A stretch of DNA of 64,000 nucleotides, from assembly GCF_048771995.1 (NCBI RefSeq), contig NC_133041.1, positions 4,727,324 through 4,791,323 of the forward strand, given 5' to 3'. This DNA is from Taeniopygia guttata (lineage: Eukaryota). Shown here in pieces: positions 6,551 through 59,575 of this stretch (positions are counted from its first letter, which is position 1; each line of letters opens with the position of its first letter). Below the pieces are notes generated by a model. It was not told the DNA's origin. It saw only the letters and a list, made by a program, of their open reading frames with translations, and ran no database searches. Both the position numbers and the translations under genes were made by a program.

Positions 6551-6668
6551 TCACGTGGGGGCGGAGCTTGGGATGATGACATCATCAGGCTCCGCCCACT
6601 CCTCTTCAGGCTCCGCCTCTCCCAAGCAGCGACGAATCAGATCGCCCCAGAGGAGGTGGGTGTGGCAC
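6551..6668 (-). CDS. SLX1: SLX1 structure-specific endonuclease subunit, terminal coding exon; encodes (G)CHTHLLWGDLIRRCLGEAEPEEEWAEPDDVIIPSSAPT*
   Basis: Minus-strand acceptor ccccag (plus 6669-6671). The TGA stop is the reverse complement of tca at 6551-6553. Matches the human SLX1 C-terminus CCEKSLLWGDLIWLC. Minus-strand AATAAA signals sit at plus 6507-6512 and 6488-6493. Confidence 0.85.
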
Positions 6669-6744
6669 CTGGGGGCGGGGTCAGAGTCAGGACACACCAT
6701 CTTTGGACAAGCCCCGCCCCCTGGCAGCCATATTGAATATTTCC

Positions 6745-7260
6745 TTTATTAAATAAATGCAAATTAAAACAAGCCCTGCCCCCTGGCAGCCATATTGAAT
6801 ATTTTTTTATAAGGGGAATGCAAATTAAAACAAGCCCCGCCCCCTGGCAGCCATATTGAATATTTTTTTATAAGGGGAATGCAAATTAAAACAAGCCCCG
6901 CCCCCTGGCAGCCATATTGGAACATTTCCTTAGAAGGGAAATGCAAATTAAAATAAGTCCCACCCCCTGGCAGCCATCTTGAAATTTTTCCTGATAAAAC
7001 AAATAGGAATTAAAACAAGCCCTGCCCCCGGCAGCCATATTGAAATATTTCTTTATAAGAGAAATGCAAATTAAAACAAGCCCCACCCCCTGGCAGCCAT
7101 ATTGAAACCTTTCCTGATAAAACAAATAGGAATTAAAACAAGCCCCACCCCCTGGCAGCCATCTTGGAACGTTCCCTCATAAGGTAAAGCTCCTTAAAAA
7201 ACAAGCCCCGCCCCCTGGCAGCCATCTTGGATCCTTTCCTTAAAAGGAAAACCGCTCTAA
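6745..7260. repeat. 60-bp tandem repeat of about 8 copies carrying an octamer (ATGCAAAT), an Sp1 GC box (CCCCGCCCCC) and a YY1-like core (GGCAGCCATATTG/ATCTTGG), inside an SLX1 intron
   Basis: Unit aaacaagccccgccccctggcagccatattgaatatttctttataaggggaatgcaaattaaa. Confidence 0.9.
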
Positions 7261-7305
7261 ACAACAAGCTCCGCCCCCCAGCATTAAGCCCCGCCCCTTT
7301 TTTAC

Positions 7306-7436
7306 CCGGGACAGTTTCCCCCCACGGGCAGCAGCTGCAGCGGCTCCGGGGCCAGGAAGAGCCGGGCCAGGCACGGGGCGTGGGCGGCCATCTTGCACTG
7401 GGGGCGGGGACAGCGCAGAAGGGGCGTGGCCTGTTC
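7306..7436 (-). CDS. SLX1: SLX1 exon, second half of the RING/PHD-type zinc finger; encodes EQATPLLRCPRPQCKMAAHAPCLARLFLAPEPLQLLPVGGNCP(G)
   Basis: Minus acceptor gttttgatgttttcag, donor gtaaaa. Aligns to human SLX1 [40 protein letters not shown]. Confidence 0.85.
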
Positions 7437-7639
7437 CTGAAAACATCAAAACGCTGAAATTCCTGCTTGAACCGCATAAATTTGCATAAATTATGCATTT
7501 CAATGTGATTTAACTAGTTTTTAACCTCACAGCGATTTATTAACAGCACATCAGGCCCCTGCCCACACCCCAAATTTCCATATATTTGCGTTTTCATGCT
7601 CCAAAATTCATCAAATTTGTATTTTGTTCTCTTTAGTGA

Positions 7640-9900
7640 AGGCCACGCCCCTTTTAGACCACGCCCAACATTAAAAATTCCCCACCATCCTAATTAAACC
7701 TATTTTAACCCCTCCTCTTTTAATTAAAGCCCCTCCCATATTTAAGTGATTATATAAACCACACCCACTTAAGCCACACCCACCTCATTAAACTCATTTA
7801 AATATAAGCCACTCCCACTTTAACCCCCAATTGAGCCCCGCCCACCTCATTAAACCCATTTCAACCCCTCCCCTTTTAATTTAAGCCCCTCCCATATTTA
7901 AATGACCATATAAACCACACTTACCTAAGACACACCCACCTAATTAAACTCACTTATATTCAAGCCCCTCCCACTTTAACCCTCAATTTAGCCACGCCCA
8001 CCTCATTAAACCCAGTTCAACCCCTCCCCTTTAAATTTAAGCCCCTCCCATATTTAAATGACCACATAAGCCACACCCACCTCATTAAACTCATTTAAAT
8101 CTAAGCCCCTCCCACTTTCAAACCCCAATTTATTAAGCCCCGCCCACCTCATTAAACCCATTTAAACCCCTCCCCTTTTAATTCAAACTCCTCCCATATT
8201 CAAATGAGCACTTAAGCCCCGCCCCTTACCTCCCCACACAAGCCACACCCACCTCATTAAACTCATTTAAATGTAAGCCCCTCCCACTTTCAAACCCCAA
8301 TTTATTAAGCCCCACCCACCTCATTAAACCCAGTTCAACCCCTCCCCTTTCAATTCAAGCCCCTCCCACATGCAAATGAGCACTTAAGCCCCGCCCCTTA
8401 CCTCATTACACAAGCCACACCCCCCGCCCGTTTCCGCCATTTGGCTCCGCCCCTTTTTCCTTTTCAGGCGCGGTGGCCCCGCCCCCTCCTCCTGCACCAC
8501 GTGATTGGGCGGGGCCAGCTCGAGGGCGGGGCCCGGGGGGCGGAGCCAGCGAATCCGCAGCGGGAGGCGGGACCAGGGCGGGGCCCAAAGGAGGCGGGGC
8601 AGCACGCGGAGGGCGAAGCTGATTGGCTGCTCCCGCGGGCGGCGGGGGGGCGGGGCCAGGAGGCGGCGGGAGGAGTTGGGGTGTTGCCACGCCCACTCGA
8701 ACTGGAAAAGGGGCGGGGCTTAAGTGCTCATTTACATATGAGAGGGGTTTAACATAAAAGGGGTGGGGCTTAAGTGCTCATTTAAATATGGGAGGGGCTT
8801 ATGATAAAGGGGGCGGGGCTTAAGTGCTCATTTAAATATGGGGGGGCTTTTTATAAAAGGGGCAGGGCTTAAGTGATCATTTAAATATGGGAGGGGCTTA
8901 CGATAAAAGGGGCGGGGCTTAAGTGCTCATTTAAATATGGGAGGGGTTTATGATAAAAGGGGCAGGGCTTAAGTGCTCATTTAAATATGGGAGGGATGAT
9001 AAAAGGGGCGGGGCTTAAGTGGTCATTTGAATATGGGAAAGGCTTAAATTTAAAGGGGAGGGATTTAAATGGGTTTAATGAGGTGGGCGTGGCTAAATTG
9101 GGGATTGAAGTGGGAGGGGCTTAGATTTAAATGAGTTTAATGAGGTGGGTGTGGCTAAAGTGGGTGTGGCTTAAATCATCATTTAAATATGGGAGGGGCT
9201 CAAATTAAAAGGGGAGGGGTTAAACTGGGTTTAATGAGGTGGGCGGGGCTTAATTTGGGATTAAAAGTGGGAGGGGTTTACATTTAAATAAGTTTAATGA
9301 GGTGGGTGTGGCTAAAGTGGGTGTGGCTTATTTGGTCATTTAAATATGGGAGGGGCTTAAATTAAAAGGGGAGGGGTTGAAATGGGTTTAATGAGGTGGG
9401 TGGGGCTTAACTTGGAATTAAAAGTGGGAGTGGCTTACATTTAAATGAGTTTAATGAGGTGGGTGTGGCTTAAGTGGGTGTGGCTGATATGGTCATTTAA
9501 ATATGGGAGGGGCTTAAATTAAAAGGGGAGGGATTTAAATGCGTTTAATGAGGTGGGCGGGGCTTAATTGGGCTTAAAAGTGTGTGGGGCTTATATTTAA
9601 ATGAGTTTAATGAGGTGGGTGGGGCTTATGTGGGCGGGGTTAAAGTGGGAGGGGCTTACATTCAAATCAGTTTAACAATGTGGATGTGGCTTATATGGTA
9701 ATTTAAATATGGGAGGGGCTTAAATTAAAATAGGGGTTAAATGTGGTTTAATGAGGTGGGCGGGGCTTAAGAAATTAAGGGTAAAACTAGGAGGGGCTTA
9801 CATGTAAATTAGTTTAATGAGGTGGGTGTGGTTTAAGTGGGTGGGGTTGAAACTGGGAGGGGCTTAAAATACAATGGGAGGGGTTGATTGTTATTTAATG
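7640..9900. repeat. Satellite of about 130 bp (...aagcccctcccatatttaaatgagcacttaagccccgcccacctcattaaac...) present as two inverted arms: C-rich orientation at 7640-8440 and G-rich reverse complement at 8700-9900. The arms flank SLX1 exon 3 (8402-8701)
   Basis: The reverse complement of 8700-8740 matches 8190-8230, and the exon lies exactly between the arms. Confidence 0.85.
8402..8701 (-). CDS. SLX1: SLX1 300-nt exon; encodes FEWAWQHPNSSRRL...LRVLPRLLWAPPWSRLPLRIRWLRP...ETGGGCGLCNE
   Basis: Minus acceptor cttttccag, donor gtaagg. The motifs FEWAWQHP, APPW-RLPL-RW-RP and the C-x2-C pair match human SLX1. The middle part is poorly conserved, so the boundaries rest on the splice sites. Confidence 0.75.
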
Positions 9901-9934
9901 AGGTGGGCGGGGCTTAAAAGGGGGCGGGGCTCAC

Positions 9935-9986
9935 CCTGAGGGCGGCGACGTCGGAGGGGAAGCCGTGGACGAAAAGTTCCATTTCC
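9935..9986 (-). CDS. SLX1: SLX1 52-nt exon; encodes (W)EMELFVHGFPSDVAALR
   Basis: Minus acceptor ...cccccgaaaag, donor gtgagc. Matches human WEMVLVVHGFPSSVAALR. The phase links exon 1 to the 8402-8701 exon. Confidence 0.8.
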
Positions 9987-10585
9987 CTTTTCGGGGGACA
10001 AAATTGGTAAAATAAATTGATTTTTAAAATAATTAATAATTATTTAATAAAATTAATCAGAATTCCACATCGAAACCCTTTAAAACCCCCCAAATCTTCC
10101 CCAAAAATTCCCCACATTTGACTTTAATTTTCTTGAATTCCCCCAAAATCTCCCAAATATTTTTCAAATATCCCCAAATTTTTCCTGAACCCATCGGAAT
10201 GCCCCCAAAATATATTTTAAATCCTTTTAAATTCCCCCAAATTCCCCAATTAACCCCTTCAATCCCCCAAAATCCCCTTTTAACCCCCCCAAAATCCCCA
10301 TTTAATCCCTTTAAAGACCCCGAATCCCCCAAAATCCGCTTCTAAACCCCCCCAAATCCCCATTTATCCCTTTAAACCCCCCAAATCCCCATTTAACCCC
10401 TTCGAACCCCCCAAAACCCCCCAAAATCCCCTTTAAACCACCCAAAATCCCCTTCGAACCCCCCCAAATCCCTATTAATCCCTTTAAACCCCCCAAATAC
10501 CAATTTAATCCCTTCAAAATCCCCCAAATCCCCATTTAACCCCTTCAAACCCCCCAAATCCCCCCAAATCCCCCCAAACCCTGAC

Positions 10586-10758
10586 CAGGGCCCCCTCCCG
10601 CTGGTCTTTTTGGCCCCTCCGCCCCTCCGTCCCGCGTTGTGCTGCCGCAGCCGCCGCCGCGGGTCCACCGTGAACCCCACGTAGGCCGCGGAACCTCCGC
10701 CACGGGGGCCGCGGGCCCGGGGGGATCCGCGGGAGCGCAGCAGGTACACGGCGCGCAT
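10586..10758 (-). CDS. SLX1: SLX1 first coding exon (GIY-YIG nuclease domain); encodes [57 protein letters not shown](W)
   Basis: Minus ATG at plus 10756-10758, donor gtcagg. GIY-YIG motifs match human SLX1 (VYLL, YVGFT, QHN, SGRGPW). An in-frame upstream ATG at plus 10842 would add 28 aa that read through the promoter motif array, so the start codon is uncertain. Confidence 0.75.
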
Positions 10759-10789: not shown

Positions 10790-11230
10790 TTCCGCCCGCG
10801 CTCAACATGGCGGCGGTACGGCCTTGTTATCCCACAATCCATTGCGGGATTGTAGCTCCGCCTCTTTAAAATGGCGGCGGTACGGCCTAGCTATCCCACA
10901 ATCCATTGCGGGATTGTAGCTCCGCCTCTTTAAAATGGCGTCGGTTGTGTGCCTCCTTACCCACAATGCACCGCGGCACCACTTCCGCCCCCGCTCAAAA
11001 TGGCGGCGTTACGGCCTCGTTATCCCACAATCCATTGCGGAATTGTAGTTCCGCCTCTTCAAGATGGCGGCGGTTCAGTGTCTCGTTACCCACAATGCAC
11101 TGCGGCAGAATTGTAGTTTTATCTTTTAAAGATGGCGGCGGTTTGTGCCTCGTTACCCACAATGCACTGCGGCAGAATTGTAGTTTTATCTTTTAAAGAT
11201 GGCGGCGGTTTGTGCCTCGTTACCCACAAT
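10790..11230. promoter_or_regulatory. SLX1/BOLA2 bidirectional promoter core: about 7 tandem units of roughly 60 bp, each carrying a YY1 core (AAGATGGCGGCGG) and a ZNF143/SBS motif (for example AACTACAATTCTGCCGCAGTGCATTGTGGGTAA, read on the minus strand)
   Basis: The array lies between the SLX1 start (about 10758, minus) and the BOLA2 start (11571, plus). The ACTACAATTCCC...TGCATTG SBS consensus is recognisable in every unit, and AAGATGGCGGC is the YY1 consensus. Confidence 0.6.
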
Positions 11231-11540
11231 GCACTGCGGGAGGAAAAAAAAAATTATATTTAATGATAAGCATTATGTAGCATTAATTAGCTTGTACTTG
11301 CGGTGAGTGGTTAATAGGCGTTAATTAGTGATGAATTTATTTTAATTGGTGCTTAATAACCGCCTCGCTTACCCACAATGCCGCGTTTCACTTCCGCCTC
11401 TTTACCCACAAACCTTTGCGCCTTTTACTGTCTTCGCCTCGCTTACCCACAATTCCCTGCCTTACTTCCGCCTCATTACCCACAATGCATCGCTCTCCCC
11501 GCCCGTCCCGCCTCGCTTTCCCATCGAGCCCCGCGCAGCG

Positions 11541-11649: not shown

Positions 11650-13690
11650 TCATTAATTAGCGGCTAATTAGCGACCCCCGCCGGGTCATTGGGCTGGGCA
11701 GGGCGGTAATTAGCTGGGAGGGCGGTTAATGAGCGGTTGGGGGGCGTTAATTGGGCGGGGGAGGGGTAATTAGCATTAATTAACCTTAATTAGCGTTAAT
11801 TAAGATGATAATTCGTTTCGGGAGGGGTTAATTTGGGTTAATTAGGATTCTAATTAGGCGGGGGAGGGGTAATTCGAGGTAATTAAGGTGGTAATTAGGT
11901 TTGAGAGGGGTTAATTAGCGTTAACTATGATTCTAATTAGGTTTGGGACTGGTTAATTAGCCTTAATTAGCGTTAATTTGGGTTATTTAGGGTGCCAGTT
12001 AGGCGAGGGAGGGTTTAATTAGCGTTAATTAGGTTTAGGAGGGGTTAATTAGGGTTAATTTAGTTGCTAATTATTTTTTTGAGGGGTTAATTAGGGAGGT
12101 AATTAGCCTTTCAGATATGTTAATTAGTGGTTAAATTATCATTAATCAACGTTAATTAGCTGTTAATAAACGCTAATAACCATTTAGTGGGTGCCAATTA
12201 ACATTTAACAAGTGCTAATTATCTTCTTATTAATTATTTTTATATTTAATTATAAGCATTATGTAGCATTAATTAGCTTATACTTGCAGCGAGCGGTTAA
12301 TGAGCATTAATTAGCGGTAATTAGCGATGAATTTATATTAATTGGTGTTTATTAACAACTAATTAGCCGTTAACGAGTGCTAATCACCCCTTAATTAAAA
12401 TATTGTTCCTCATTAGCATGGGCGGGGGGGCGGGACGTTAATTGTTGCTAATTAATCAGCGCTAATTGCAGGAGGTGCAGGACTCGCCCCAGCTCTGCCC
12501 CGGAAGTTTCCGCGTTCTCGTCGTTTCCGGAACGTTCCGCGGCCTCAAAACGCTCCAGAGGCACCGGTGGGGGCGGGGCCTAATTTGCATTTAATTATAA
12601 AAGGGGTGGGGCCTAATTTGGGTTTAATTATTAAAGGGGCGGGGCTTAATTTGGATTTTAAATATAAAAAGGGCAGGGCTTAATTTGGGTTTAATTAAAA
12701 AGAGGCGGGGCTTTAAATGGGATTTAAATTAGAAAGGGGCGGGGCTTAATTTTGGTTTAATTGGGAAAAGGGGCGTGGCTTAATTTGAGGTTAATTGGGG
12801 AAATGGGTGGGGCTTAAATTGGGTTTAATTGGGAAAAGGGGCGGGGCTTAATTTGGATTTAAATATAAAAGGGGTGGGGCTTAATTTGGGGTTAATTGGA
12901 AAAGGGGCGGGGCTTAAATTGGGTTTTAATATAAAAGGGGTGGGGCTTAAATTTGGGTTAATCGGGAAAGGGGCGGGGCTTAATTTTGGTTTAATTGGGG
13001 AAAAGGGCGGGGCTTAATTTTGGTTTAATTGGGAAAAGGGGCGGGGCTTAATTTGCATTTAATTGGGGAAGGGGCGGGGCTTAATTTGGGTTTAATTTGG
13101 GAAAGGGGCGGGGCTTAAATTGGGTTTAATTGGGGAAGGGGCGGGGCTTAATTTGGGTTTAATTGGGAAAAGGGGCGTGGCTTATTTTGCATTTAATTAG
13201 AAGAGGGGTGGGGCTTGATTTGGGTTTAATTGGGAAAGGGGCGGGGTTTAATTTAGGTTTAAATCAGAAAATTATCAAGGCTTAATTTGGATTTAATTAA
13301 AAAAGGGGTGGGGCTTTATTTGAGTTTAATTGGGGAAAAGGGCGGGGCTTAATTTGGGTTTAATTGGGAAAATGGGCGGGGCTTAATTTGAGTTTAATTG
13401 GGAAAGGGGTGGGGCTTAATTTGGGTTTAATTAGGAAAAGAGGCGGGGCTTAATTTGAGGTTAATTGGGGAAAGGGGCGGGGCTTATTTTGGGTTTAATT
13501 GGGAAAAGGGGCAGGGCTTAATTTGGGTTTTAATTAGGGAAAGGGGCGGGGCTTGAATTGGGTTTAAATGGGGAAATGGGCGGAGCTTAATTTAAATTTA
13601 ATTGGGAAAAGGGGTGGGGCTTAATTTAAATTTAATTGGGAAAAGGGGCGGGGCTTACATTTGTCTTATATGGGAAAAGGGGCGGGGATT
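11650..13690. repeat. BOLA2 intron repeats: AT-rich ttaattag-type units (11650-12460) and a roughly 40-bp repeat of about 28 copies, aaaggggcggggcttaatttgggtttaattggg (12570-13690)
   Basis: Direct periodicity. Confidence 0.85.
12472..12566 (+). CDS. BOLA2: BOLA2 exon 2; encodes EVQDSPQLCPGSFRVLVVSGTFRGLKTLQRH(R)
   Basis: Acceptor ttgcag, donor GTgggg at 12567. Matches human EVEDTTLNRCSCSFRVLVVSAKFEGKPLLQRHR. Confidence 0.85.
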
Positions 13691-13773
13691 GATTAATAAT
13701 TAATTACAGAAGGGGTTAACGAGGGGTTTTAAGGGCTGGTCTGGGGGTTAATTAGCATCTCATGAATATGCAG

Positions 13774-14149: not shown

Positions 14150-16730
14150 CAGGGAGGGGCTCCCAGTTTGATCCCAGTCCCCACCCCCCAAAATAGAACC
14201 AAAAATGACCCAAAATGCCCCAAAATTGCCCAAAAAAAGACCAAAAATGACCCAAAATGGAACCAAAATGGACCAAAAATGGTCCAAAAATGACTCAAAA
14301 GTGGCACAAAATGGCTCAAAAATGATCCAAAAAAGGTCGAAAAATGACCCAAAAATGAATCAAAAAAATGTCCAAAAATGGCCTAAAATGACCCCAAAAT
14401 GGCCCAAAATTGACTCCCAAAAATATCCAAAAATGAGCCCAAAATGGTCCCAAAAAGGGCCTAAAAATTACTCAAAAAATGTCCAAAAATGAGCCAAAAA
14501 TGCTCAAATATGTCACAAAATTGACTCCAAAAAATGCCCAAAAATGACCGAAAATGTCACAAAAAAGGTCCCAAAAATGGTCAAAAATTATTCAAAAATG
14601 GTCCCAAAAGTGTCCCAAAACTGACTCCTAAAAATATCCAAAAATGGTCCAAAAATGGCAAAAATTAGTCAAAAAAGTCCAAAAATAGCCCAAAATGATA
14701 CAAAAGTGACCTAAAATGACCCAAAAATGGTCCCTAAAATGGCCCAAAATTGACCCTAAAAAATGTCCCAAAAATGGCCCAAAATTGACCCTAAAAAATG
14801 TCCCAAAAAAAGGTCCCAAAACGACCCAAAATTGACCCCAAAGTGACCCAAAAAATTATCCGAAAAAAGTCCCAAAATGACCCAAAATGACCCAGAAATG
14901 ACAAATCCCCTCCCCCACCCCCGCGGGATTCGATGGGGGGGAGGGGCGGCCCCTCCCCCTCCCCTCCCCCACCCCCCGGCCCCGCCTCTGCCCGGGGTGG
15001 GGGAGGGGCCGATTTTGGGTCATTTTGGGACTTTTTCGGCCATTTTGGGGCCATTTCGGGACCTTTTTTTGGGTCATTTTTGGTCTTTTTTTGGGGCAAT
15101 TTTGGGGTTTTTTTTAATTATTTTTTTGGGGGGTGGGGAAAGGGATTTTTGGGGTGGGGGAGGGGCCGATTTTGGGGTGGCTTTGGGACATTTTGGGTCT
15201 TTTTTGGGGCCATTTTTGGGCCACTTTTGAGTCCATTTTGGGACCTTTTTTTGGGTCATTTTTGGGTCTTTTTTTTGGGGTCAATTTTGGGGCAATTTTT
15301 GGGCATTTTGGGTTTGGTTTGTTTTTTGGGGGGTGGGGGAGGGGCAATTCGGGGTCATTTTTTTGAGGGTGGGGGAGGGGCCGATTTTGGGGTCACTTTG
15401 GGACATTTTGGGTCTTTTTTGGGGTCAATTTTGGTCATTTTTTTGTCATTTGGGGGGTGGGGGAGGGGATTCGGGGGTGGGGGAGGGGCGGGGACAGGAC
15501 TTTGAGAGTGGGGGAGGGGCCTGAAGGGTGGGGGAGGGGATTTGGGGTGGGGGAGGGGCCGATTTTTGGGGTCACTTTGGGACTTTTTGGTCATTTTTGT
15601 CATTTCTGGGTCATTTTGGGTCATTTTTGAGCCATTTTTGGGTCATTTTGGGACATTTTTTGGAGGCAATTTTGGGACATTTTTGGGACCGTTTTTGGCT
15701 CATTTTTCAGCCATTTTTGGGTCATTTTTGGGACATTTTTTGTACATTTTTTGGTCATTTTTGTGTCATTTTTCGAGTCAATTTTGGGTCATTTTTGGAC
15801 ATTTTTAGAACCATTTTGGGTCATTTTTGGAGGGGATTTGAGGGTGGGGGAGGGGAAATTTGACGCCATTTTTGAGGGTGGGGGAGGGGCCGATTTTGGG
15901 GTGACTTTGGGACACTTTGAGTCTTTTTGGGACCTTTTTTTGGGTCACTTTTGGGTCTTTTTTTGGGGGTCAATTTTGGGGCAATTTTTGGGCATTTTGG
16001 GGCTTTTTTTTTGTTTCGTTCGAGGTGGGGGAGGGGATTTGGGGGTGGGGGAGGGGCTGGGAGAGGACTTTGAGAGTGGGGGAGGGGCTTGAAGGGTGGG
16101 GGAGGGGAAACTCGGGGTGGGGGAGGGGCAATTCGGGGTAATCATTGAGGGTGGGGGAGGGGCCGATTTTGGGGCCATTTTGGGTCTCTTTTGGGGTCAA
16201 TTTTGCGGAATTTTGGTCTTTTTTTAAAATTCTCATTTGGGGGTGGGGGAGGGGAAGTTTGGGGTGGGGGAGGGGAAATTTGGGGTGGATTTAAGGGTGG
16301 GGGAGGGGAACTGAGGCGGTTTTGAGGGTGGGGGAGGGGATTTTCGGGGTGGGGGAGGGGCAATTTGGGGTGGGGGAGGGGATTTGAGGGTGGGGGGAGG
16401 GGAAATTTGGGGTGGATTTAAGGGTGGGGGAGGGGAACTGGGGCGGTTTTGAGGGTGGGGGAGGGGATTTGGGGGTGGGGGAGGGGAAATTTGGGGTGGG
16501 GGAGGGGAACTGAGGCGGTTTTGAGGGTGGGGGAGGGGAAATTTGGGGTGGGGGAGGGGATTTAAGGGTGGGGGAGGGGAACTGAGGCGGTTTTGAGGGT
16601 GGGGGAGGGGATTTGGGGTGGGGGAGGGGTTGTGACGATGGGGGCGGGGCTCAGCGGTGGGGGAGGGGCTCCGGGAGGGGATTTAGGCGCCAAACGGGGG
16701 TGGGGGAGGGGAATTTTGGGGTGGGGGAGG
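14150..16730. repeat. Intergenic arrays upstream of SLC5A2: a roughly 20-bp gacccaaaatg-type repeat in mixed orientation (14150-15100), then about 1.6 kb of G-quadruplex-type repeats gggtgggggaggggatttg (15100-16730)
   Basis: Runs of GGG(N1-3)GGGGGAGGGG on the + strand continue without a break up to the SLC5A2 ATG. Confidence 0.85.
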
Positions 16731-21775: not shown

Positions 21776-23335
21776 GTACTGGGATATACTGGGAGGGACT
21801 GGGAGGGACTGGGAGGGACTGGGAGGGACTGGGAGGGACTGGGAACAAACTGGGTTATACTGGGAGGGACTGGGAATGGAGTGGGAGGGACTGGGAGGGA
21901 CTGGGAGGGACTGGGAATGAACTGGGAGGGACTGGGGGGGGACTGGGTTATACTGGGAGGGACTGGGAGGGACTGGGAATGAACTGGGTTATACTGGGAG
22001 GGACTGGGTTATACTGGGAGGGGACTTGGATAAACTGGGAGGGAATGGGATGTACTGGGAGGGCACTGGGAGGGACTGGGAGGGACTGGGTTATACTGGG
22101 AATGAACTGGGAGGGACTGGGAACAAACTGGGTTATACTGGGGGGGACTGGGAGGGACTGGGAGGGGATTGGAATGAACTGGGTTATACTGGGAGTGACT
22201 GGGAGGGACTGGGTTATACTGGGTTATACTGGGAGGGACTGGGAGGGAACTGGGAGGGACTGGGAGGGAACTGGGTTATACTGGGAGGGACTGGGAGGGA
22301 CTGGGAGGGAACTGGGAGTGGGGAGGAAACTCCAAATTCCACAGGGACCCCCCAGTTCCCTCCCAGTATAACCCAGTTTGTTCCCAGTCCCTCCCAGTTC
22401 CCTCCCAGTCCCTCCCAGTTTGTCCCAGTCAATTCCCAGTTCCCTCCCAGTCTGTTCCAGTGCCTCCCAGTCCATTCCCAGTTTGTCCCAGTTAATCCCA
22501 GTCCCTCTCAGTATAACCCAGTTTATTCCCAGTTCCCTCCCAGTCCCTCCCAGTCTGTCCCAGCATATCCCAGTCCCTCCCAGTTCCCTCCCAATCCATT
22601 CCCAGTTAATCCCAGTTAATCCCACTTCCCTCCCAGTCTCTCCCAGTTTATCCCAGTCCCTCCCAGTTCACTCCCATTTCCCTCCCAGTATAACCCAGTT
22701 TGTTCCCAGTCCTTCCCAGTCCCCTGCCAGCCCCTCCAGTACAAACCAGTATAACCCAGTTTGTTCCCAGTCCCTCCCAGTCTCTCCCAGTTTATCCCAG
22801 TCCCTCCCAGTTCACTCCCATTTCCCTCCCAGTATAACCCAGTTTATTCCCAGTTCCCTCCCAGTCCCTCCCAGTCCCTCCCAGTCCCTCTCAGTCACTC
22901 CCAGTACAAACCAGTCCATTCCCAGTTTATCCCAGTTCCCTCCCAGTCCTTCCCAGTTGCCTCCCAGTACAAACCAGTATAACCTAGTTTGTTCCCACTC
23001 CCTCCCAGTTCATCCCAGTCCCTCCCAGTTTATCCCAGTCAATTCCCCGTTCCCTCCCAGTCTGTTCCAGTGCCTCCCAGTCCATTCCCAGTTAATCCCA
23101 GTCTATCCCAGTCCCTCCCAGTCCCTCCCAGTCCATTCCCAGTATAACCCAGTTTATCCCAGTCTCTCCCAGTCCATTCCCAGTTCCCTCCCAGTCCCTC
23201 CCAGTTCCCTCCCAGTCCCTCCCAGTCCATTCCCAGTTTATCCCAGTCCCTCCCAGTCCATTCCCAGTTTATCCCAGTCTATCCCAGTGCCCCACAGCCC
23301 CTCCCAGTCCGTCCCAGTACAGACCAGTTTGGCAG

Positions 23336-23441
23336 GTGGACATGTACTCGGGGGCGCTGTTCATCCGCGAGGCGCTGGGCTGGGACCTGTACGGCTCCGT
23401 GGGGGCGCTGCTGGCCGTGACCGCGCTCTACACCGTCACTG
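23336..23441 (+). CDS. SLC5A2: SLC5A2 exon 6; encodes [35 protein letters not shown](G)
   Basis: Acceptor tttggcag, donor gtttgt. Matches SGLT2 [36 protein letters not shown]. Confidence 0.9.
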
Positions 23442-25014
23442 GTTTGTACTGGTTTATACTGGTTTGTACTGGTTTGGGCTGGGAGGGGCTGGGAGGGGTC
23501 TGGGAAGGGACTGGGTTGGACTGGGATAAACTGGGAGGGACTGGGAGGGGATGAAAGGGTTAAAAATGGGGAATGATCGGTGCTGGAGGGGATTTTTTGT
23601 ACTGGTTTGTACTGGTTTGTACTGGTTTGGGCAGGGAGGGACTGGGAGGGCTCTGGGAGGGACTGGGAGGGACTGGGAGGGAACTGGGAGGGACTGGGAT
23701 AAACTGGGAGGAAACAGGGAGGGAACTGGGAGGGACTGGGATAAACTGGAAATGGACTGGGAGGGAATTGGGACAAACTGGGAAGGAACTGGGATAAACT
23801 GGGAGGGAACTGGGATGGACTGGGAGGGACTGGGAGGGGATGAAAGGGTTAAAAATGGGGGATAATCGGTGCTGGAGGGGATTTTTTGTACTGGTTTGTA
23901 CTGGTTTTGTACTGGTTTGTACTGGTTTGGGCAGGGAGGGACTGGGATGGACTGGGATATACTGGGATGGACTGGGACAAACTGGGATGGACTGGGAGGG
24001 AACTGGGAGAAACTGGGAGGGAACTGGGAGGGACTGGGAGGGAACTGGGATGGACTGGGAGGGACTGGGAGGAACTGGGAGGGACTGGGAGGGACTGGGA
24101 ACAAACTGGGAAGGAACTGGGAGGGAACTGGGAGGGACTGGGAGGGACTGGGATAAACTGGAAATGGACTGGGAGGGAACTGGGACAAACTGGGAAGGAA
24201 CTGGGATAAACTGGGAGGGAACTGGGATGGACTGGGAGGGGTCTGGGGAGGGACTGGGATGGACTGGGAGGGACTGGGAGGGGATGAAAGGGTTAAAAAT
24301 GGGGGATAATCGGTGCTGGAGGGGATTTTTTTGTACTGGTTTGTACTGGTTTTGTACTGGTTTGTACTGGTTTGGGCAGGGAGGAACTGGGAGGGCTCTG
24401 GGAGGGGACTGGGAGGGCTCTGGGAGGGACTGGGAGGGAACTGGGACAAACTGGGAAGGAACTGGGATAAACTGGGAGGGAACTGGGATGGACTGGGACA
24501 AACTGGGAGGAAACTGGGAGGGAACTGGGAGAAACTGGGAGGGACTGGGAGGGAACTGGGACAAACTGGGAAGGAACTGGGAGGGAACTGGGAGGGACTG
24601 GGACAAACTGGGACAAACTGGGAATGGACTGGGAGCGAACTGGGAGGGACTGGGAAGGAACTGGGAGGAACTGGGACAAACTGGGAGGGAACTGGGATAA
24701 ACTTGGAGGGACTGGGACAAACTGGGTTATACTGGGAGGGAACTGGGAGGGACTGGTTTGGCACAGTGGGCGTGGCTTTATAGGGATGGGCGTGGCTTAA
24801 CTGGGTGTGGACGCTATATTTGCATAATGGGCGTGGCTTAACTGGGTGTGGATGCTGCATTTGCATAATGGGCGTGGCTTAACTGGGTATGGGCGCAATA
24901 TTTGCATAATGGGCGTGGCTTAACCGGGTGCGGACACGATTATTGCACGGTGGGCGTGGTTTAACTGGGTGTGGGCGTGGCCTGAGTGGGTGTGGTCATT
25001 GTGGGCGTGGCCAG

Positions 25015-58638: not shown

Positions 58639-59575
58639 CTGGGGGGGGCGGGGCCACATCGGGACACGCCCACCGGCCACACCCTCACAAGCCCCTCCCC
58701 CTCACTCAAAACCCCGCCCACTCCCGCCAATAAATTCACGCCACGCCCACTTTTGTGGCACCACACCCCTCTAAGCCACTCCCACCTCATTTAAATGCAC
58801 CACGCCCCTTCTTTAAGCCCCGCCCATTCACCCCACTAAGCCCCTCCCCTTTAAATTTAACCCTTTACGTCCTTCCCCTTCCTTTAACCCCTCTAAGCCC
58901 CTCCCCCTAAAAAGCTCCACCCATCTTTTAAGCCCCTCCCCTTTTCTTTAAGCCCCTCCCCTTTCCTTAAAGCCCCTCCCCTTTCCTTTAGGCCCCTCCC
59001 ATTTTCCTTTAAGCCCCTCCCCCTTCCTTTTAAGCCCCTCCCCTTTTATTTAAGCCCCTCCCCCTCATTAAATCCCCCTCATAACAAGCCCCGCCCATTT
59101 AACAAGCCCCTCCCCCTTTTTTGACCCCTCCAATTTAAGCCCCTCCCATTTTCCTTTAAGCCCCTCCCCTTTCCTTTAAGCCCCTCCCCCTTTATTTTAG
59201 GCCCCTCCCCTTTTATTTAAGCCCCTCCCCCTCATTAAATCCCCCTCATAACAAGCCCCTCCCCCTTTTTCAACCCCTCCCATTTAAGCCCCTCCCACTT
59301 TCATTTAAGCCCCTCCCCTTTCCTTTTAAGCCCCTCCCATTTCCTTTAAGCCCCTCCCACTTTCCTTTAGCCCCTCCCCTTTCCTTTAAGCCCCTCCCCT
59401 TCCCTTTAAGCCCCTCCCCTTTTCTTTAACCCCTTTCCTTTAAGCCCCGCCCCCTTTCCCATTCAAACCCCTCCCCTTAAGCCCCGCCCCTCATTTAGAA
59501 TGCAAATTTTCGGCCCCACGCCCACCCAAGCCACGCCCACCCGTGCCAGGCCCCGCCCCCTTTAGCCCCGCCCAC

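What the first reader, a model, noticed from the sequence alone, without database searches (positions are those of the whole stretch)
7640..9900. SLX1 exon 3 sits exactly between two inverted arms of the same 130-bp satellite
The C-rich orientation of the satellite (7640-8440) ends at the exon 3 donor, and the reverse-complement G-rich orientation (8700-9900) starts at the exon 3 acceptor. The 300-nt exon is therefore the central spacer of a large imperfect inverted repeat. This could promote hairpin extrusion of the exon, exon inversion, or loss.
Basis: seen in the sequence. Interest (0 to 1): 0.55.

Follow-up and report, generated by a model that had tools for sequence, protein, structure and literature searches.

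The report
SLX1 exon flanked by inverted satellites
In the zebra finch SLX1 gene, the 300-base exon that carries the enzyme's catalytic glutamate lies exactly between two oppositely oriented blocks of one 157-base intronic satellite. The layout is real, is an unusual form of the known repeat-filled introns of bird dot chromosomes, and is more likely to affect RNA splicing than to break the DNA.

Summary
The gene is zebra finch SLX1 on the minus strand. Its spliced product is identical to XP_041575474.2. Exon 3 is 8402-8701, exactly 300 nt.

Intron 3 (7632-8401) and intron 2 (8702-9934) carry the same satellite in strictly opposite orientation. There are 63 minus-strand BLAST HSPs and no plus-strand ones. 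The best alignment is 661 columns at 84% (E 3e-176). The unit is 157 bp, not 130.

Both arms reach to within 1-6 nt of the splice sites and start in the same unit phase, so the mirror axis lies 2 bp from the exon centre. Units are as alike between arms (85.6%) as within them, with no fixed differences.

Other birds share only the C-rich intron 2 and G-rich intron 3 polarity and short motif matches. The kilobase homology is therefore lineage-specific.

My reading is dot-chromosome "sequence stuttering" plus an inverted copy or conversion between the introns. It is probably neutral. Its main consequence should be a very long intron-intron RNA duplex looping out exon 3, which would favour skipping or circularisation. 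Exon-3-skipped isoforms are annotated in five other songbirds but not in zebra finch.

DNA cruciform extrusion is unlikely, given the 308-bp spacer and about 15% divergence. The exon is intact.

The parts
10586..10758 (-). SLX1 exon 1, coding part (ATG at 10758; GIY-YIG N-terminal half)
   Evidence: Manual splice model. The five-exon CDS of 774 nt translates to a 257-aa protein identical to XP_041575474.2.
9935..9986 (-). SLX1 exon 2 (52 nt). Its donor AGG|gtgagc is the outer end of the right arm.
   Evidence: The peptide EMELFVHGFPSDVAALR is 100% conserved in the oscine loci.
8702..9934 (+). Right arm, which is all of intron 2. It is G-rich on the plus strand and C-rich in the pre-mRNA. From the exon outward it holds six copies of unit positions 1-59 (50-bp period, 8718-9021), four full 157-bp units (9013-9637), a partial unit, a full unit (9689-9844) and a partial unit reaching 9935.
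   Evidence: TRF; nhmmer with the unit profile, all hits plus strand; BLAST coverage 8708-9924; GC skew +0.55 to +0.79.
8402..8701 (-). SLX1 exon 3: 300 nt, 100 codons, phase 0/0. It encodes FEWAWQ...GGGCGLCNE, that is the C-terminal part of GIY-YIG, the linker and the first CxxC of the SLX1_C zinc finger. It is the spacer of the inverted repeat.
   Evidence: tblastn against remembered human SLX1A aligns residues 80-189.
7632..8401 (-). Left arm, the 5' 80% of intron 3. It is C-rich on the plus strand and G-rich in the pre-mRNA. It holds about 4.7 units of the same 157-bp satellite, all in the opposite orientation to the right arm. Unit position 1 lies next to the exon, at 8389.
   Evidence: nhmmer hits 7632-7757, 7761-7913, 7918-8071, 8062-8217 and 8233-8389, all minus strand, 55-145 bits; TRF periods 146/156/172; GC skew -0.65 to -0.84.
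8374..8399 (.). Inner perfect 26-nt arm (aaatgagcacttaagccccgcccctt), 2 nt from the exon 3 donor. It pairs with 8708-8733.
   Evidence: Direct reading. The duplex of the innermost 40 nt of each intron is -65.4 kcal/mol, against -21.5 +/- 3.9 for shuffles.
8708..8733 (.). Inner perfect 26-nt arm (aaggggcggggcttaagtgctcattt), 6 nt from the exon 3 acceptor.
   Evidence: The innermost MFE pairs are 8705-8401 and 8708-8399.
8061..8422 (-). A 172-bp tandem duplication (2.1 copies, 92% matches) that runs 21 nt into exon 3. It therefore duplicates the exon border and donor, leaving a decoy donor GGGGAG|GTAAGG with GT at 8229-8228.
   Evidence: TRF; units L1 and L2 are 93% identical; decoy donor located.
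7437..7631 (-). Non-repetitive 3' part of intron 3, orthologous to the 3' part of Anomalospiza intron 3.
   Evidence: BLAST of window intron 3 positions 838-962 against L001 intron 3 positions 428-550: 80%, E 1e-22.
7306..7436 (-). SLX1 exon 4 (SLX1_C zinc finger)
6551..6668 (-). SLX1 exon 5, coding part including the stop codon

Best explanation
This is a real, lineage-specific satellite inverted repeat inside zebra finch SLX1. The gene lies on a record of 5.74 Mb, the size of a dot microchromosome.

**Shown**
- Introns 2 and 3 are filled, right up to the exon 3 splice sites, with the same 157-bp satellite in opposite orientations.
- The arms are in mirror phase about the exon.
- The arms are not distinguishable from each other by any fixed difference.
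- Other birds have only the polarity (C-rich intron 2, G-rich intron 3) and short GGGGCGGGGCTTAA-type motif matches.

**Inferred origin**
- The arrays grew by the local intronic expansion described for dot chromosomes as "sequence stuttering". One expansion copies the exon 3 border and its donor.
- In the estrildid lineage one intron's array was then copied into the other in inverted orientation, or converted it. The pre-existing motif-level inverse similarity could have seeded this.
- The unit matches relatives' intron 2 better than their intron 3. This favours transfer from intron 2 into intron 3.

**Inferred consequence**
- The arrangement is most likely a neutral by-product.
- Each arm has only 6-7% of the complementary base, so it can hardly pair with itself.
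- The pre-mRNA is therefore predicted to form a very long intron 2-intron 3 duplex, starting 2-6 nt from both splice sites, with exon 3 as the loop.
- This is the architecture known to promote exon skipping and back-splicing.
- Skipping exon 3 is in frame. It would remove the catalytic Glu (human E82 equivalent, from memory) and the first CxxC of the zinc finger, giving an inactive product.
- Cruciform or hairpin formation in duplex DNA is unlikely with this spacer and divergence.
For: **Identity of the locus**
- The spliced product is identical to XP_041575474.2, SLX1 of Taeniopygia guttata, on a 5,740,876-bp record.
- Pfam finds GIY-YIG and SLX1_C.
- Zebra finch dot chromosomes measure 5.99 +/- 1.57 Mb and tandem repeats make up over 70% of their introns.

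**Same family, inverted**
- 63 minus-strand and 0 plus-strand HSPs, best E 3e-176.
- Unit-profile hits of 121-157 bits for the full units in both arms, with strict strand segregation.
- Identity within the left arm is 85.4%, within right-arm units R1-R4 87.4%, and between arms 85.6%. There are 0 fixed differences in 160 columns.
- Mirror phase: unit position 1 sits at 8389 and at 8718. The axis is 8553.5 and the exon centre is 8551.5.

**Stuttering features**
- TRF array 8061-8422 overlaps exon 3 by 21 nt and duplicates the donor.
- This matches the description in PMC12954441.

**Lineage specificity**
- In Anomalospiza, Agelaius, Vidua, Sturnus and Myiozetetes, intron 2 has GC skew -0.62 to -0.78 and intron 3 has +0.34 to +0.90.
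- In those species, intron 2 against intron 3 gives only 20-49-nt inverted HSPs.
- The polarity is also present in crane, quail and Pseudopodoces.

**Direction of transfer**
- The window's intron 3 array matches Viduid intron 2 in inverted orientation: 153 nt at 80%, E 8e-26, and 208 nt at 77%, E 3e-26. It matches the Viduid intron 3 repeats only at 22-50 nt.
- Unit-profile scores are 76, 62 and 56 bits in relatives' intron 2 and at most 46 bits in their intron 3. The background from unrelated satellites is at most 36 bits.

**RNA prediction**
- A 611-nt fold gives -329.9 kcal/mol, z -8.8.
- The 2679-nt fold from exon 2 to exon 4 has 724 of 967 pairs between intron 2 and intron 3, while exon 3 pairs only with itself.
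- The inner duplex has z -11 to -15.
- Arm base composition is given.
- Isoforms with the exon 2|exon 4 junction are annotated in Agelaius phoeniceus, A. tricolor, Zonotrichia albicollis, Geospiza parvula and Catharus ustulatus.
Against: - There are no RNA data. No zebra finch exon-3-skipped product exists in the protein collection, and the reference model includes exon 3.
- Skipped isoforms are annotated in species that have only 13-17-bp complementarity. Skipping therefore need not depend on the long arms.
- MFE folding ignores co-transcriptional splicing, helicases, RNA-binding proteins and competing G-quadruplexes. The G-rich strands carry 8 and 13 G4 motifs with loops up to 12 nt.
- The direction and mode of transfer rest on differences in score, not on a breakpoint. 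An ancient inverted duplication kept homogeneous in zebra finch by arm-to-arm conversion fits equally well.
- An identity matrix from profile alignment could not separate the alternatives. Unrelated satellites also scored about 78%.
- I could not check read support. The source paper reports PacBio HiFi coverage drop-outs in the highly euchromatic regions of dot chromosomes, strongly correlated with degenerate minisatellite repeats.
Confidence: 0.6

Rival explanations
1. One reading: a DNA-level hazard. The inverted arms extrude a hairpin or cruciform, or recombine with each other. This would make exon 3 prone to inversion, deletion or breakage.
For: - The single-stranded DNA fold of 8250-8860 pairs the arms across the exon: -168.3 kcal/mol, z -7.9.
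- Exact inverted matches reach 68 nt, at 7841-7908 / 9333-9400.
- In long ssDNA, yeast inverted repeats up to 25% divergent and 30 kb apart still cause fold-back rearrangements (PMC10164571).
Against: - Exon 3 is in the correct orientation and intact, and the product equals the RefSeq protein.
- An earlier version of the protein record has the same exon content.
- In duplex DNA, increasing the spacer from 12 to 20 bp already lowers recombination stimulated by inverted repeats about 40-fold, and divergence lowers it further. Here the spacer is 308 bp and divergence is about 15%.
Confidence: 0.15
2. An ancient inverted duplication, not a recent transfer. Under this view the same unit family has flanked exon 3 in inverted orientation since early oscines. 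In zebra finch the two arms stayed homogeneous through gene conversion between them, while in other lineages they drifted apart.
For: - The polarity, and GGGGCGGGGCTTAA motifs next to both splice sites, are shared by all passerines examined.
- The unit profile hits intron 2 on one strand and intron 3 on the other in Anomalospiza, Agelaius and Sturnus.
- There are no fixed differences between the arms in zebra finch.
Against: - Intron 3 hits in relatives (at most 46 bits) are barely above the level reached by unrelated GC-box satellites elsewhere (at most 36 bits).
- BLAST finds only 20-49-nt inverted matches within those species.
- Arm identity of 84-88% is far below what active arm-to-arm conversion maintains in known palindromes.
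Confidence: 0.3
3. A selected RNA switch. Under this view the complementarity flanking exon 3 is maintained because it tunes exon 3 inclusion, skipping or circularisation, and so the dosage of active SLX1.
For: - Complementarity next to the splice sites exceeds composition-matched shuffles in zebra finch (z -11), Agelaius (-5.8) and Pseudopodoces (-5.5).
- There is one double change consistent with pairing: CCCCGCCCC/GGGGCGGGG in zebra finch and Agelaius against CCCCTCCCC/GGGGAGGGG in Pseudopodoces.
- Skipped isoforms are annotated in five songbirds.
Against: - The stem is weak or mismatched in Vidua, Anomalospiza and Myiozetetes, and absent in quail and crane.
- Both motif variants are common throughout these satellites, so the apparent covariation is cheap.
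- The skipped product lacks the catalytic Glu and a zinc-ligand pair, so it has no evident use.
- Polarity flips of satellites also occur away from exons.
Confidence: 0.1
4. An assembly artefact, such as a fold-back chimera or a mis-oriented repeat block in a hard-to-sequence minisatellite region.
For: HiFi coverage drops in the highly euchromatic regions of dot chromosomes, in strong correlation with minisatellites. A Vidua contig ends 71 nt into intron 3.
Against: - The arms are not mirror copies. They are 84-88% identical, differ in length (770 against 1233 nt) and differ in internal organisation, with a 50-bp sub-array on one side only.
- The opposite skews of the two introns are seen in eight independent assemblies of other birds.
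- The gene model across the region is complete.
Confidence: 0.03

Closest known systems
Intronic "sequence stuttering" and minisatellite-filled introns of avian dot chromosomes (chicken: PMC12954441; zebra finch: bioRxiv 10.1101/2025.10.14.682431 and 10.1101/2025.10.17.683159)
   Same: - Introns are filled with imperfect local tandem repeats of tens to hundreds of bases.
- The arrays start at the exon border.
- One repeated block copies the lateral part of an exon together with its splice donor.
- The record is the size of a dot chromosome.
- The satellites are rich in G-runs and A-tracts.
   Different: - Those papers describe direct (tandem) expansion.
- The chicken paper contains neither "inverted" nor "palindrom".
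- The zebra finch non-B DNA survey limits inverted repeats to arms of at most 30 bp and spacers of at most 10 bp.
- Here the same higher-order unit occupies two neighbouring introns in opposite orientation, in mirror phase about the exon.
Reverse-complementary intronic matches flanking circularised or skipped exons (for example inverted Alu pairs in mammals; the RCMs of C. elegans zip-2, PMC8330042)
   Same: - Complementary sequences lie in the introns on both sides of an internal exon, close to the splice sites.
- The predicted duplex loops out the exon.
- Exon-skipped isoforms are annotated in related species.
   Different: - The arms are tandem satellite arrays of 0.77 and 1.23 kb, not dispersed transposon copies or 13-40-nt matches.
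- Each arm is strongly strand-biased, so it has almost no competing partner within its own intron.
- No circRNA or skipping has been demonstrated for this locus in zebra finch.
Fragile DNA palindromes and quasi-palindromes (Alu inverted repeats in yeast, PMC10164571 and PMC3855049)
   Same: Two inverted arms of several hundred bases on one chromosome, able to fold back when single-stranded.
   Different: The spacer is 308 bp and divergence is about 15%. Fragile inverted repeats have spacers of about 12-20 bp and high identity. No rearrangement is seen here.
Large palindromes kept homogeneous by arm-to-arm gene conversion (sex-chromosome ampliconic palindromes; from my own knowledge)
   Same: Inverted arms around a unique spacer. 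There are no fixed arm-specific differences, which suggests exchange or a recent common origin.
   Different: - Those arms are typically more than 99% identical, tens of kilobases long, and carry genes in the arms.
- Here the arms are degenerate satellite arrays at 84-88%, and the gene segment is the spacer.

Membership tests
SLX1 structure-specific endonuclease gene | GIY-YIG nuclease domain plus SLX1 C-terminal zinc-finger domain | tested here: met
   Pfam PF01541 at E 1e-12 and PF21202 at E 9e-18. The product is identical to XP_041575474.2.
SLX1 structure-specific endonuclease gene | Conserved synteny with BOLA2 and SGF29 | tested here: met
   Orthologous loci carry BolA on one side and SGF29_Tudor on the other. 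The window's BOLA2-side sequence aligns to L001 and L002.
Dot-chromosome intronic sequence stuttering | Introns largely covered by imperfect local tandem repeats with blocks of tens to hundreds of bases | tested here: met
   TRF reports 580 rows for the window. Intron 2 is 100% covered and intron 3 about 80% covered by the 157-bp family.
Dot-chromosome intronic sequence stuttering | The repeated block starts at or spans an exon border and can copy a splice site | tested here: met
   Array 8061-8422 overlaps exon 3 by 21 nt. There is a decoy donor at 8229. The arms end 1 and 6 nt from the exon.
Dot-chromosome intronic sequence stuttering | Located on a dot chromosome | tested here: inconclusive
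   The record carrying the identical protein is 5,740,876 bp, within the dot-chromosome size range of 5.99 +/- 1.57 Mb. The chromosome name was not obtained because the look-up failed.
Dot-chromosome intronic sequence stuttering | Array length polymorphism between individuals | not testable with these tools
   No second haplotype or population data were available.
Reverse-complementary intronic matches that drive back-splicing or exon skipping | Complementary sequences of about 30 nt or more in both flanking introns, near the splice sites | tested here: met
   There is a 26-nt perfect and 34-bp near-perfect stem 2-6 nt from the splice sites, and 724 cross-intron pairs in the MFE fold.
Reverse-complementary intronic matches that drive back-splicing or exon skipping | Observed back-splice junction (circRNA) of the bracketed exon | not testable with these tools
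   No transcriptome data were available.
Reverse-complementary intronic matches that drive back-splicing or exon skipping | Observed skipping of the bracketed exon | tested here: inconclusive
   Exon 2|exon 4 isoforms are annotated in five other songbirds. The corresponding zebra finch product is not in the collection.
Cruciform-forming or fragile DNA palindrome | Short spacer, of the order of 20 bp or less | tested here: not met
   The spacer between the innermost matching bases is 308 bp.
Cruciform-forming or fragile DNA palindrome | Near-identical arms | tested here: not met
   Arm identity is 84-88%. The longest exact match is 68 nt.
Palindrome homogenised by arm-to-arm gene conversion | Arm-to-arm identity clearly higher than expected from the age of the arms (typically above 99%) | tested here: not met
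   Between-arm identity is 85.6%, about equal to within-arm identity of 85-87%.

The most novel reading that the evidence does not exclude
Inverted copies of one intronic satellite on either side of an exon may be a recurrent and functionally used architecture of songbird dot-chromosome genes. Kilobase-scale intron-intron RNA duplexes would then set the inclusion, skipping or circularisation of the bracketed exon. For SLX1, this would control how much catalytically competent nuclease is made. A second exon in this window, an SLC5A-like exon at about 23333-23443, has the same layout with the same gene-sense polarity.
Probability: 0.1. Interest if true: 0.65.

Novelty: new variant of a known kind. 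Interest (0 to 1): 0.36.

Why it matters
Repeat-filled introns of bird dot chromosomes have only just been described, and so far only as direct expansions. This locus shows that the same process can place one satellite in opposite orientations around a coding exon, flush with both splice sites.

The result is a satellite-based equivalent of the inverted Alu pairs that drive exon skipping and circRNA formation in mammals. It sits in a gene whose bracketed exon carries the catalytic glutamate.

If the predicted duplex forms in vivo, array turnover on dot chromosomes would be a fast-evolving source of splicing variation. It would also be a source of long nuclear dsRNA.

The locus offers a natural comparison. 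Zebra finch has kilobase arms, while other songbirds have 13-17-bp stems. That makes the question directly testable with existing RNA-seq and long-read data.

If nothing happens at RNA level, the locus is simply a striking but neutral example of satellite dynamics.

Tried and rejected
- **Frameshift in exon 3.** I suspected one from a hand translation. It was a miscount of a C run. The script shows one continuous frame.
- **Zebra finch locus record.** I tried to fetch the record itself, and further loci for Passer montanus and Passerculus. They are not on record. The chromosome name and a second assembly were therefore not obtained.
- **Origin of the intron 3 array.** I tried to decide it with an identity matrix of units aligned to the unit profile. 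A calibration showed that unrelated satellites also reach about 78% and shuffled units about 61%. The measure does not discriminate, so I relied on BLAST E-values and profile bit scores instead.
- **Independent convergent expansion.** I rejected the idea that both introns expanded independently from similar splice-site motifs. It cannot give the same 157-bp higher-order unit with 0 fixed differences and pairs up to 92.9% identical across arms.
- **Exon-specific polarity rule.** I rejected a universal rule of this kind. Intron 1 and intron 2 flank exon 2 with the opposite polarity order and belong to different families. Satellite flips also occur with a spacer of about 30 bp and no exon.
- **Rfam.** No known RNA family is present anywhere in the window.
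- **Skipped product.** An exact look-up of the hypothetical zebra finch exon-3-skipped product found nothing.
Full report
**What is in the sequence**

The region lies in a window that is almost wholly tandem repeat: TRF returns 580 rows for 64 kb. On the minus strand there is a five-exon gene with GT-AG introns throughout.

| Feature | Window coordinates | Length |
|---|---|---|
| Exon 1 (coding part) | 10758-10586 | 173 nt |
| Exon 2 | 9986-9935 | 52 nt |
| Exon 3 | 8701-8402 | 300 nt |
| Exon 4 | 7436-7306 | 131 nt |
| Exon 5 (to stop) | 6668-6551 | 118 nt |

The 774-nt CDS encodes 257 residues with GIY-YIG and SLX1_C domains. It is identical to XP_041575474.2, SLX1 of Taeniopygia guttata, carried on a record of 5,740,876 bp. 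It is 98% identical to the earlier version of that entry. The record size fits the zebra finch dot chromosomes, which measure 5.99 +/- 1.57 Mb. Exon 3 is exactly 300 nt, in phase 0/0, and has an open frame.

**Check of the observation**

- BLASTN of the left flank (7500-8401) against the right flank (8702-10000) gives 63 HSPs, every one on the minus strand.
- The best alignment is 661 columns at 84.1%, E 3e-176.
- Homology runs from 7680 to 8400 and from 8708 to 9924.
- The repeat finder gives ungapped inverted pairs up to 260 nt at 88%.

A profile built from four right-arm monomers finds the following:
- about 4.7 units in the left arm, all on the minus strand (7632-8389);
- six copies of the first 59 unit positions in the right arm (50-bp period, 8718-9021);
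- then four full units (9013-9637), a partial unit, a full unit and a partial unit reaching the exon 2 donor at 9935, all on the plus strand.

The unit is 156-157 bp, not 130. The exon 3 donor is at 8401/8402, not 8440.

Both arms present unit position 1 next to the exon, at 8389 and at 8718. The mirror axis (8553.5) therefore falls 2 bp from the exon midpoint (8551.5).

A perfect 26-nt inverted repeat (8374-8399 / 8708-8733) sits 2 nt from the donor and 6 nt from the acceptor. The spacer is 308 nt: the exon plus its splice dinucleotides and a few bases. "Exactly between" is a fair description.

**Relation of the arms to each other**

In a MAFFT alignment of four left and five right units:

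| Comparison | Mean identity |
|---|---|
| Within the left arm | 85.4% |
| Within right-arm units R1-R4 | 87.4% |
| Between the arms | 85.6% |

The closest pair of all between the arms is L4 with R3, at 92.9%. No column separates the arms; there are 0 fixed differences in 160 columns. This is one family.

The arms are not mirror copies of each other. They measure 770 and 1233 nt, and only the right arm has the 50-bp sub-array. This argues against a fold-back assembly artefact.

**Features of local expansion**

The innermost left-arm duplication (TRF 8061-8422, period 172, 92% matches) extends 21 nt into exon 3. It therefore duplicates the exon border and donor, leaving a decoy GGGGAG|GTAAGG with GT at 8229-8228.

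This is what a 2026 paper on chicken dot chromosomes calls "sequence stuttering", including "exon stuttering", in which source sequences lie within a base of the exon border (PMC12954441). The zebra finch T2T papers report that tandem repeats make up over 70% of dot-chromosome introns.

None of these papers describes inverted arrangements. The chicken paper contains neither "inverted" nor "palindrom". The non-B DNA survey restricts inverted repeats to arms of 30 bp or less and spacers of 10 bp or less.

**Other birds**

I retrieved the SLX1 locus from eight species: Anomalospiza, Agelaius, Vidua, Sturnus, Myiozetetes, Grus, Excalfactoria and Pseudopodoces. I mapped the exons in each.

- In every passerine, intron 2 is C-rich in gene sense (GC skew -0.62 to -0.78) and intron 3 is G-rich (+0.31 to +0.90). 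Crane and quail show the same polarity.
- GC-box-like motifs sit next to the splice sites: AAGCCCC[G/T]CCCC upstream and GTAAGGGG[A/C]GGGGCTT downstream.
- Within those species, however, intron 2 against intron 3 gives only 20-49-nt inverted HSPs.

The kilobase-scale homology is therefore specific to the zebra finch lineage. It arose after the split from Viduidae, on top of an old polarity.

The window's intron 3 array matches Viduid intron 2 in inverted orientation (153 nt at 80%, E 8e-26; 208 nt at 77%, E 3e-26). It matches the repeats of Viduid intron 3 only over 22-50 nt. Unit-profile scores tell the same story:

| Target | Best profile score |
|---|---|
| Relatives' intron 2 | 76, 62 and 56 bits |
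| Relatives' intron 3 | at most 46 bits |
| Unrelated GGGGCGGGGCTTAA-type satellites elsewhere | at most 36 bits |

This favours, but does not prove, an intron 2 origin of the unit followed by inverted transfer into intron 3. An identity matrix meant to settle the point proved uninformative once calibrated.

**How it most likely works**

Two things are shown: the anatomy and its lineage specificity. The rest is inferred.

*Origin.* Local expansion from the exon borders, followed by an inverted duplication or conversion between the two introns. The pre-existing inverse motif similarity could have seeded this. The alternative is an ancient inverted duplication kept homogeneous only in this lineage.

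*Consequence.* Each arm contains only 6-7% of the base complementary to its dominant G or C. It can therefore hardly pair with itself, and the other arm is its natural partner. The RNA predictions are as follows.
- The 611-nt segment around exon 3 folds to -329.9 kcal/mol, against -256.7 +/- 8.3 for shuffles, z -8.8.
- In the 2679-nt fold from exon 2 to exon 4, 724 of 967 base pairs join intron 2 to intron 3. Exon 3 pairs only with itself. The innermost pairs are 8705-8401 and 8708-8399.
- The innermost 40 nt of each intron give a duplex of -65.4 kcal/mol, z -11.4.

Complementary intronic sequences flanking an exon are the established cis-determinant of back-splicing. They have also been shown to promote skipping of the bracketed exon (PMC8330042).

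Skipping exon 3 is in frame. From the alignment to human SLX1A and my own knowledge of the E82A nuclease-dead mutant, it would remove the catalytic glutamate. That glutamate is the second codon of exon 3. Skipping would also remove the first CxxC of the zinc finger.

Isoforms with exactly the exon 2|exon 4 junction (…DVAALR|AQATPLL…) are annotated in Agelaius phoeniceus, A. tricolor, Zonotrichia albicollis, Geospiza parvula and Catharus ustulatus. None is on record for zebra finch. Those species, where examined, have only short stems. Agelaius has 17 bp (z -5.8). The stem is also significant in Pseudopodoces (z -5.5), weak in Vidua, Anomalospiza and Myiozetetes, and absent in quail and crane. 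The annotation therefore shows that exon 3 is skippable in songbirds. It does not show that the long arms cause skipping.

**The DNA-level reading**

Single-stranded DNA would also fold with the exon as a loop: -168.3 kcal/mol, z -7.9. Exact inverted matches reach 68 nt.

In duplex DNA, however, recombination stimulated by inverted repeats falls about 40-fold when the spacer grows from 12 to 20 bp, and drops further with divergence (PMC10164571). Here the spacer is 308 bp and the arms differ by about 15%. Only in long single-stranded regions do widely spaced repeats, up to 25% divergent, interact.

Nothing in the sequence shows inversion, loss or decay of exon 3. I rate this hazard as possible but minor.

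**How unusual is it?**

A minus-strand self-comparison of the whole window finds three regions with nearby inverted same-family arrays.
1. The SLX1 introns 2 and 3.
2. An 11-bp satellite flipping around a GC-rich core at 14921-15182.
3. A 10-bp minisatellite (ACTGGGAGGG / CCCTCCCAGT) that flips several times between 20.7 and 28.5 kb.

The third region flips once with a spacer of about 30 bp and no exon. It flips once around an exon at about 23333-23443, whose peptide matches the sodium:solute symporter family (Pfam SSF, E 6e-8). That second case has the same gene-sense polarity as SLX1 exon 3: C-rich upstream and G-rich downstream.

Orientation flips are therefore a recurring property of these satellites. 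Bracketing of an exon is not unique to SLX1. The SLX1 case stands out for three reasons: its long complex unit, its mirror phase, and its flush contact with both splice sites.

**Verdict**

- The structural interpretation is right.
- The DNA-instability interpretation is unsupported, and the RNA-level consequence is more plausible but untested.
- The feature is a new variant of two known kinds: dot-chromosome intronic stuttering, and complementary flanking introns.
- It is of moderate interest, mainly because it is directly testable with existing zebra finch transcriptome and long-read data.

Noticed in passing
window 22351-24756 (exon at about 23333-23443, plus strand): A second exon is bracketed by inverted arms of one satellite. 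Its peptide [36 protein letters not shown] matches Pfam SSF (sodium:solute symporter, E 6e-8). It lies between a CCCTCCCAGT array (22351-23318) and a GGGAGGGACT array (23634-24756). The gene-sense polarity is the same as at SLX1 exon 3.
   Followed up: partly
window 21788-23318: The 10-bp minisatellite ACTGGGAGGG switches to its reverse complement across a spacer of only about 30 bp (22319-22350), with no exon in between. For DNA structure, this is a much tighter quasi-palindrome of satellite arrays than the SLX1 one.
   Followed up: partly
window 14187-15832: The 11-bp satellite CCCAAAAATGA (14187-14902) is followed by its reverse complement ATTTTTGGGTC (15012-15830). Between them lies a GC-rich core of about 100 bp and unknown nature.
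   Followed up: no
window 12570-13694; L002 6266-7471: The 34-bp satellite GGGGCGGGGCTTAATTTGGGTTTAATTGGAAAA on the BOLA2 side aligns to the orthologous Agelaius array over about 1250 nt at 74%. Some intronic satellites therefore persist across oscine families rather than turning over quickly.
   Followed up: partly
window 10807-11241: A 64-67-bp tandem repeat lies immediately upstream of SLX1 exon 1, between SLX1 and BOLA2. The N-terminus of the Lonchura striata SLX1-like protein P0023 (MDCGYRVHNSAIFRRQNYNPA… three times) looks like a translation of this repeat, which suggests a mis-annotated first exon.
   Followed up: no
L003 (Vidua macroura) 9213-9283: The contig ends 71 nt into the G-rich intron 3, just after exon 3. 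The Sturnus and Pseudopodoces loci carry runs of N in the same introns. These arrays break short-read and older assemblies.
   Followed up: no
window 6669-7305, 7632-9934, 12570-13694, 58764-59502: The core motif GGGGCGGGGCTT(AA), which resembles a GC box, recurs in otherwise different satellites of several introns and genes. Weak unit-profile hits of 14-36 bits mark a loose superfamily.
   Followed up: partly
window 8228-8229: A decoy copy of the exon 3 donor (GGGGAG|GTAAGGGGCGGGGCTTAAG) lies 172 nt into intron 3. It was created by a tandem duplication that includes the last 21 nt of the exon. Using it would shift the reading frame.
   Followed up: partly
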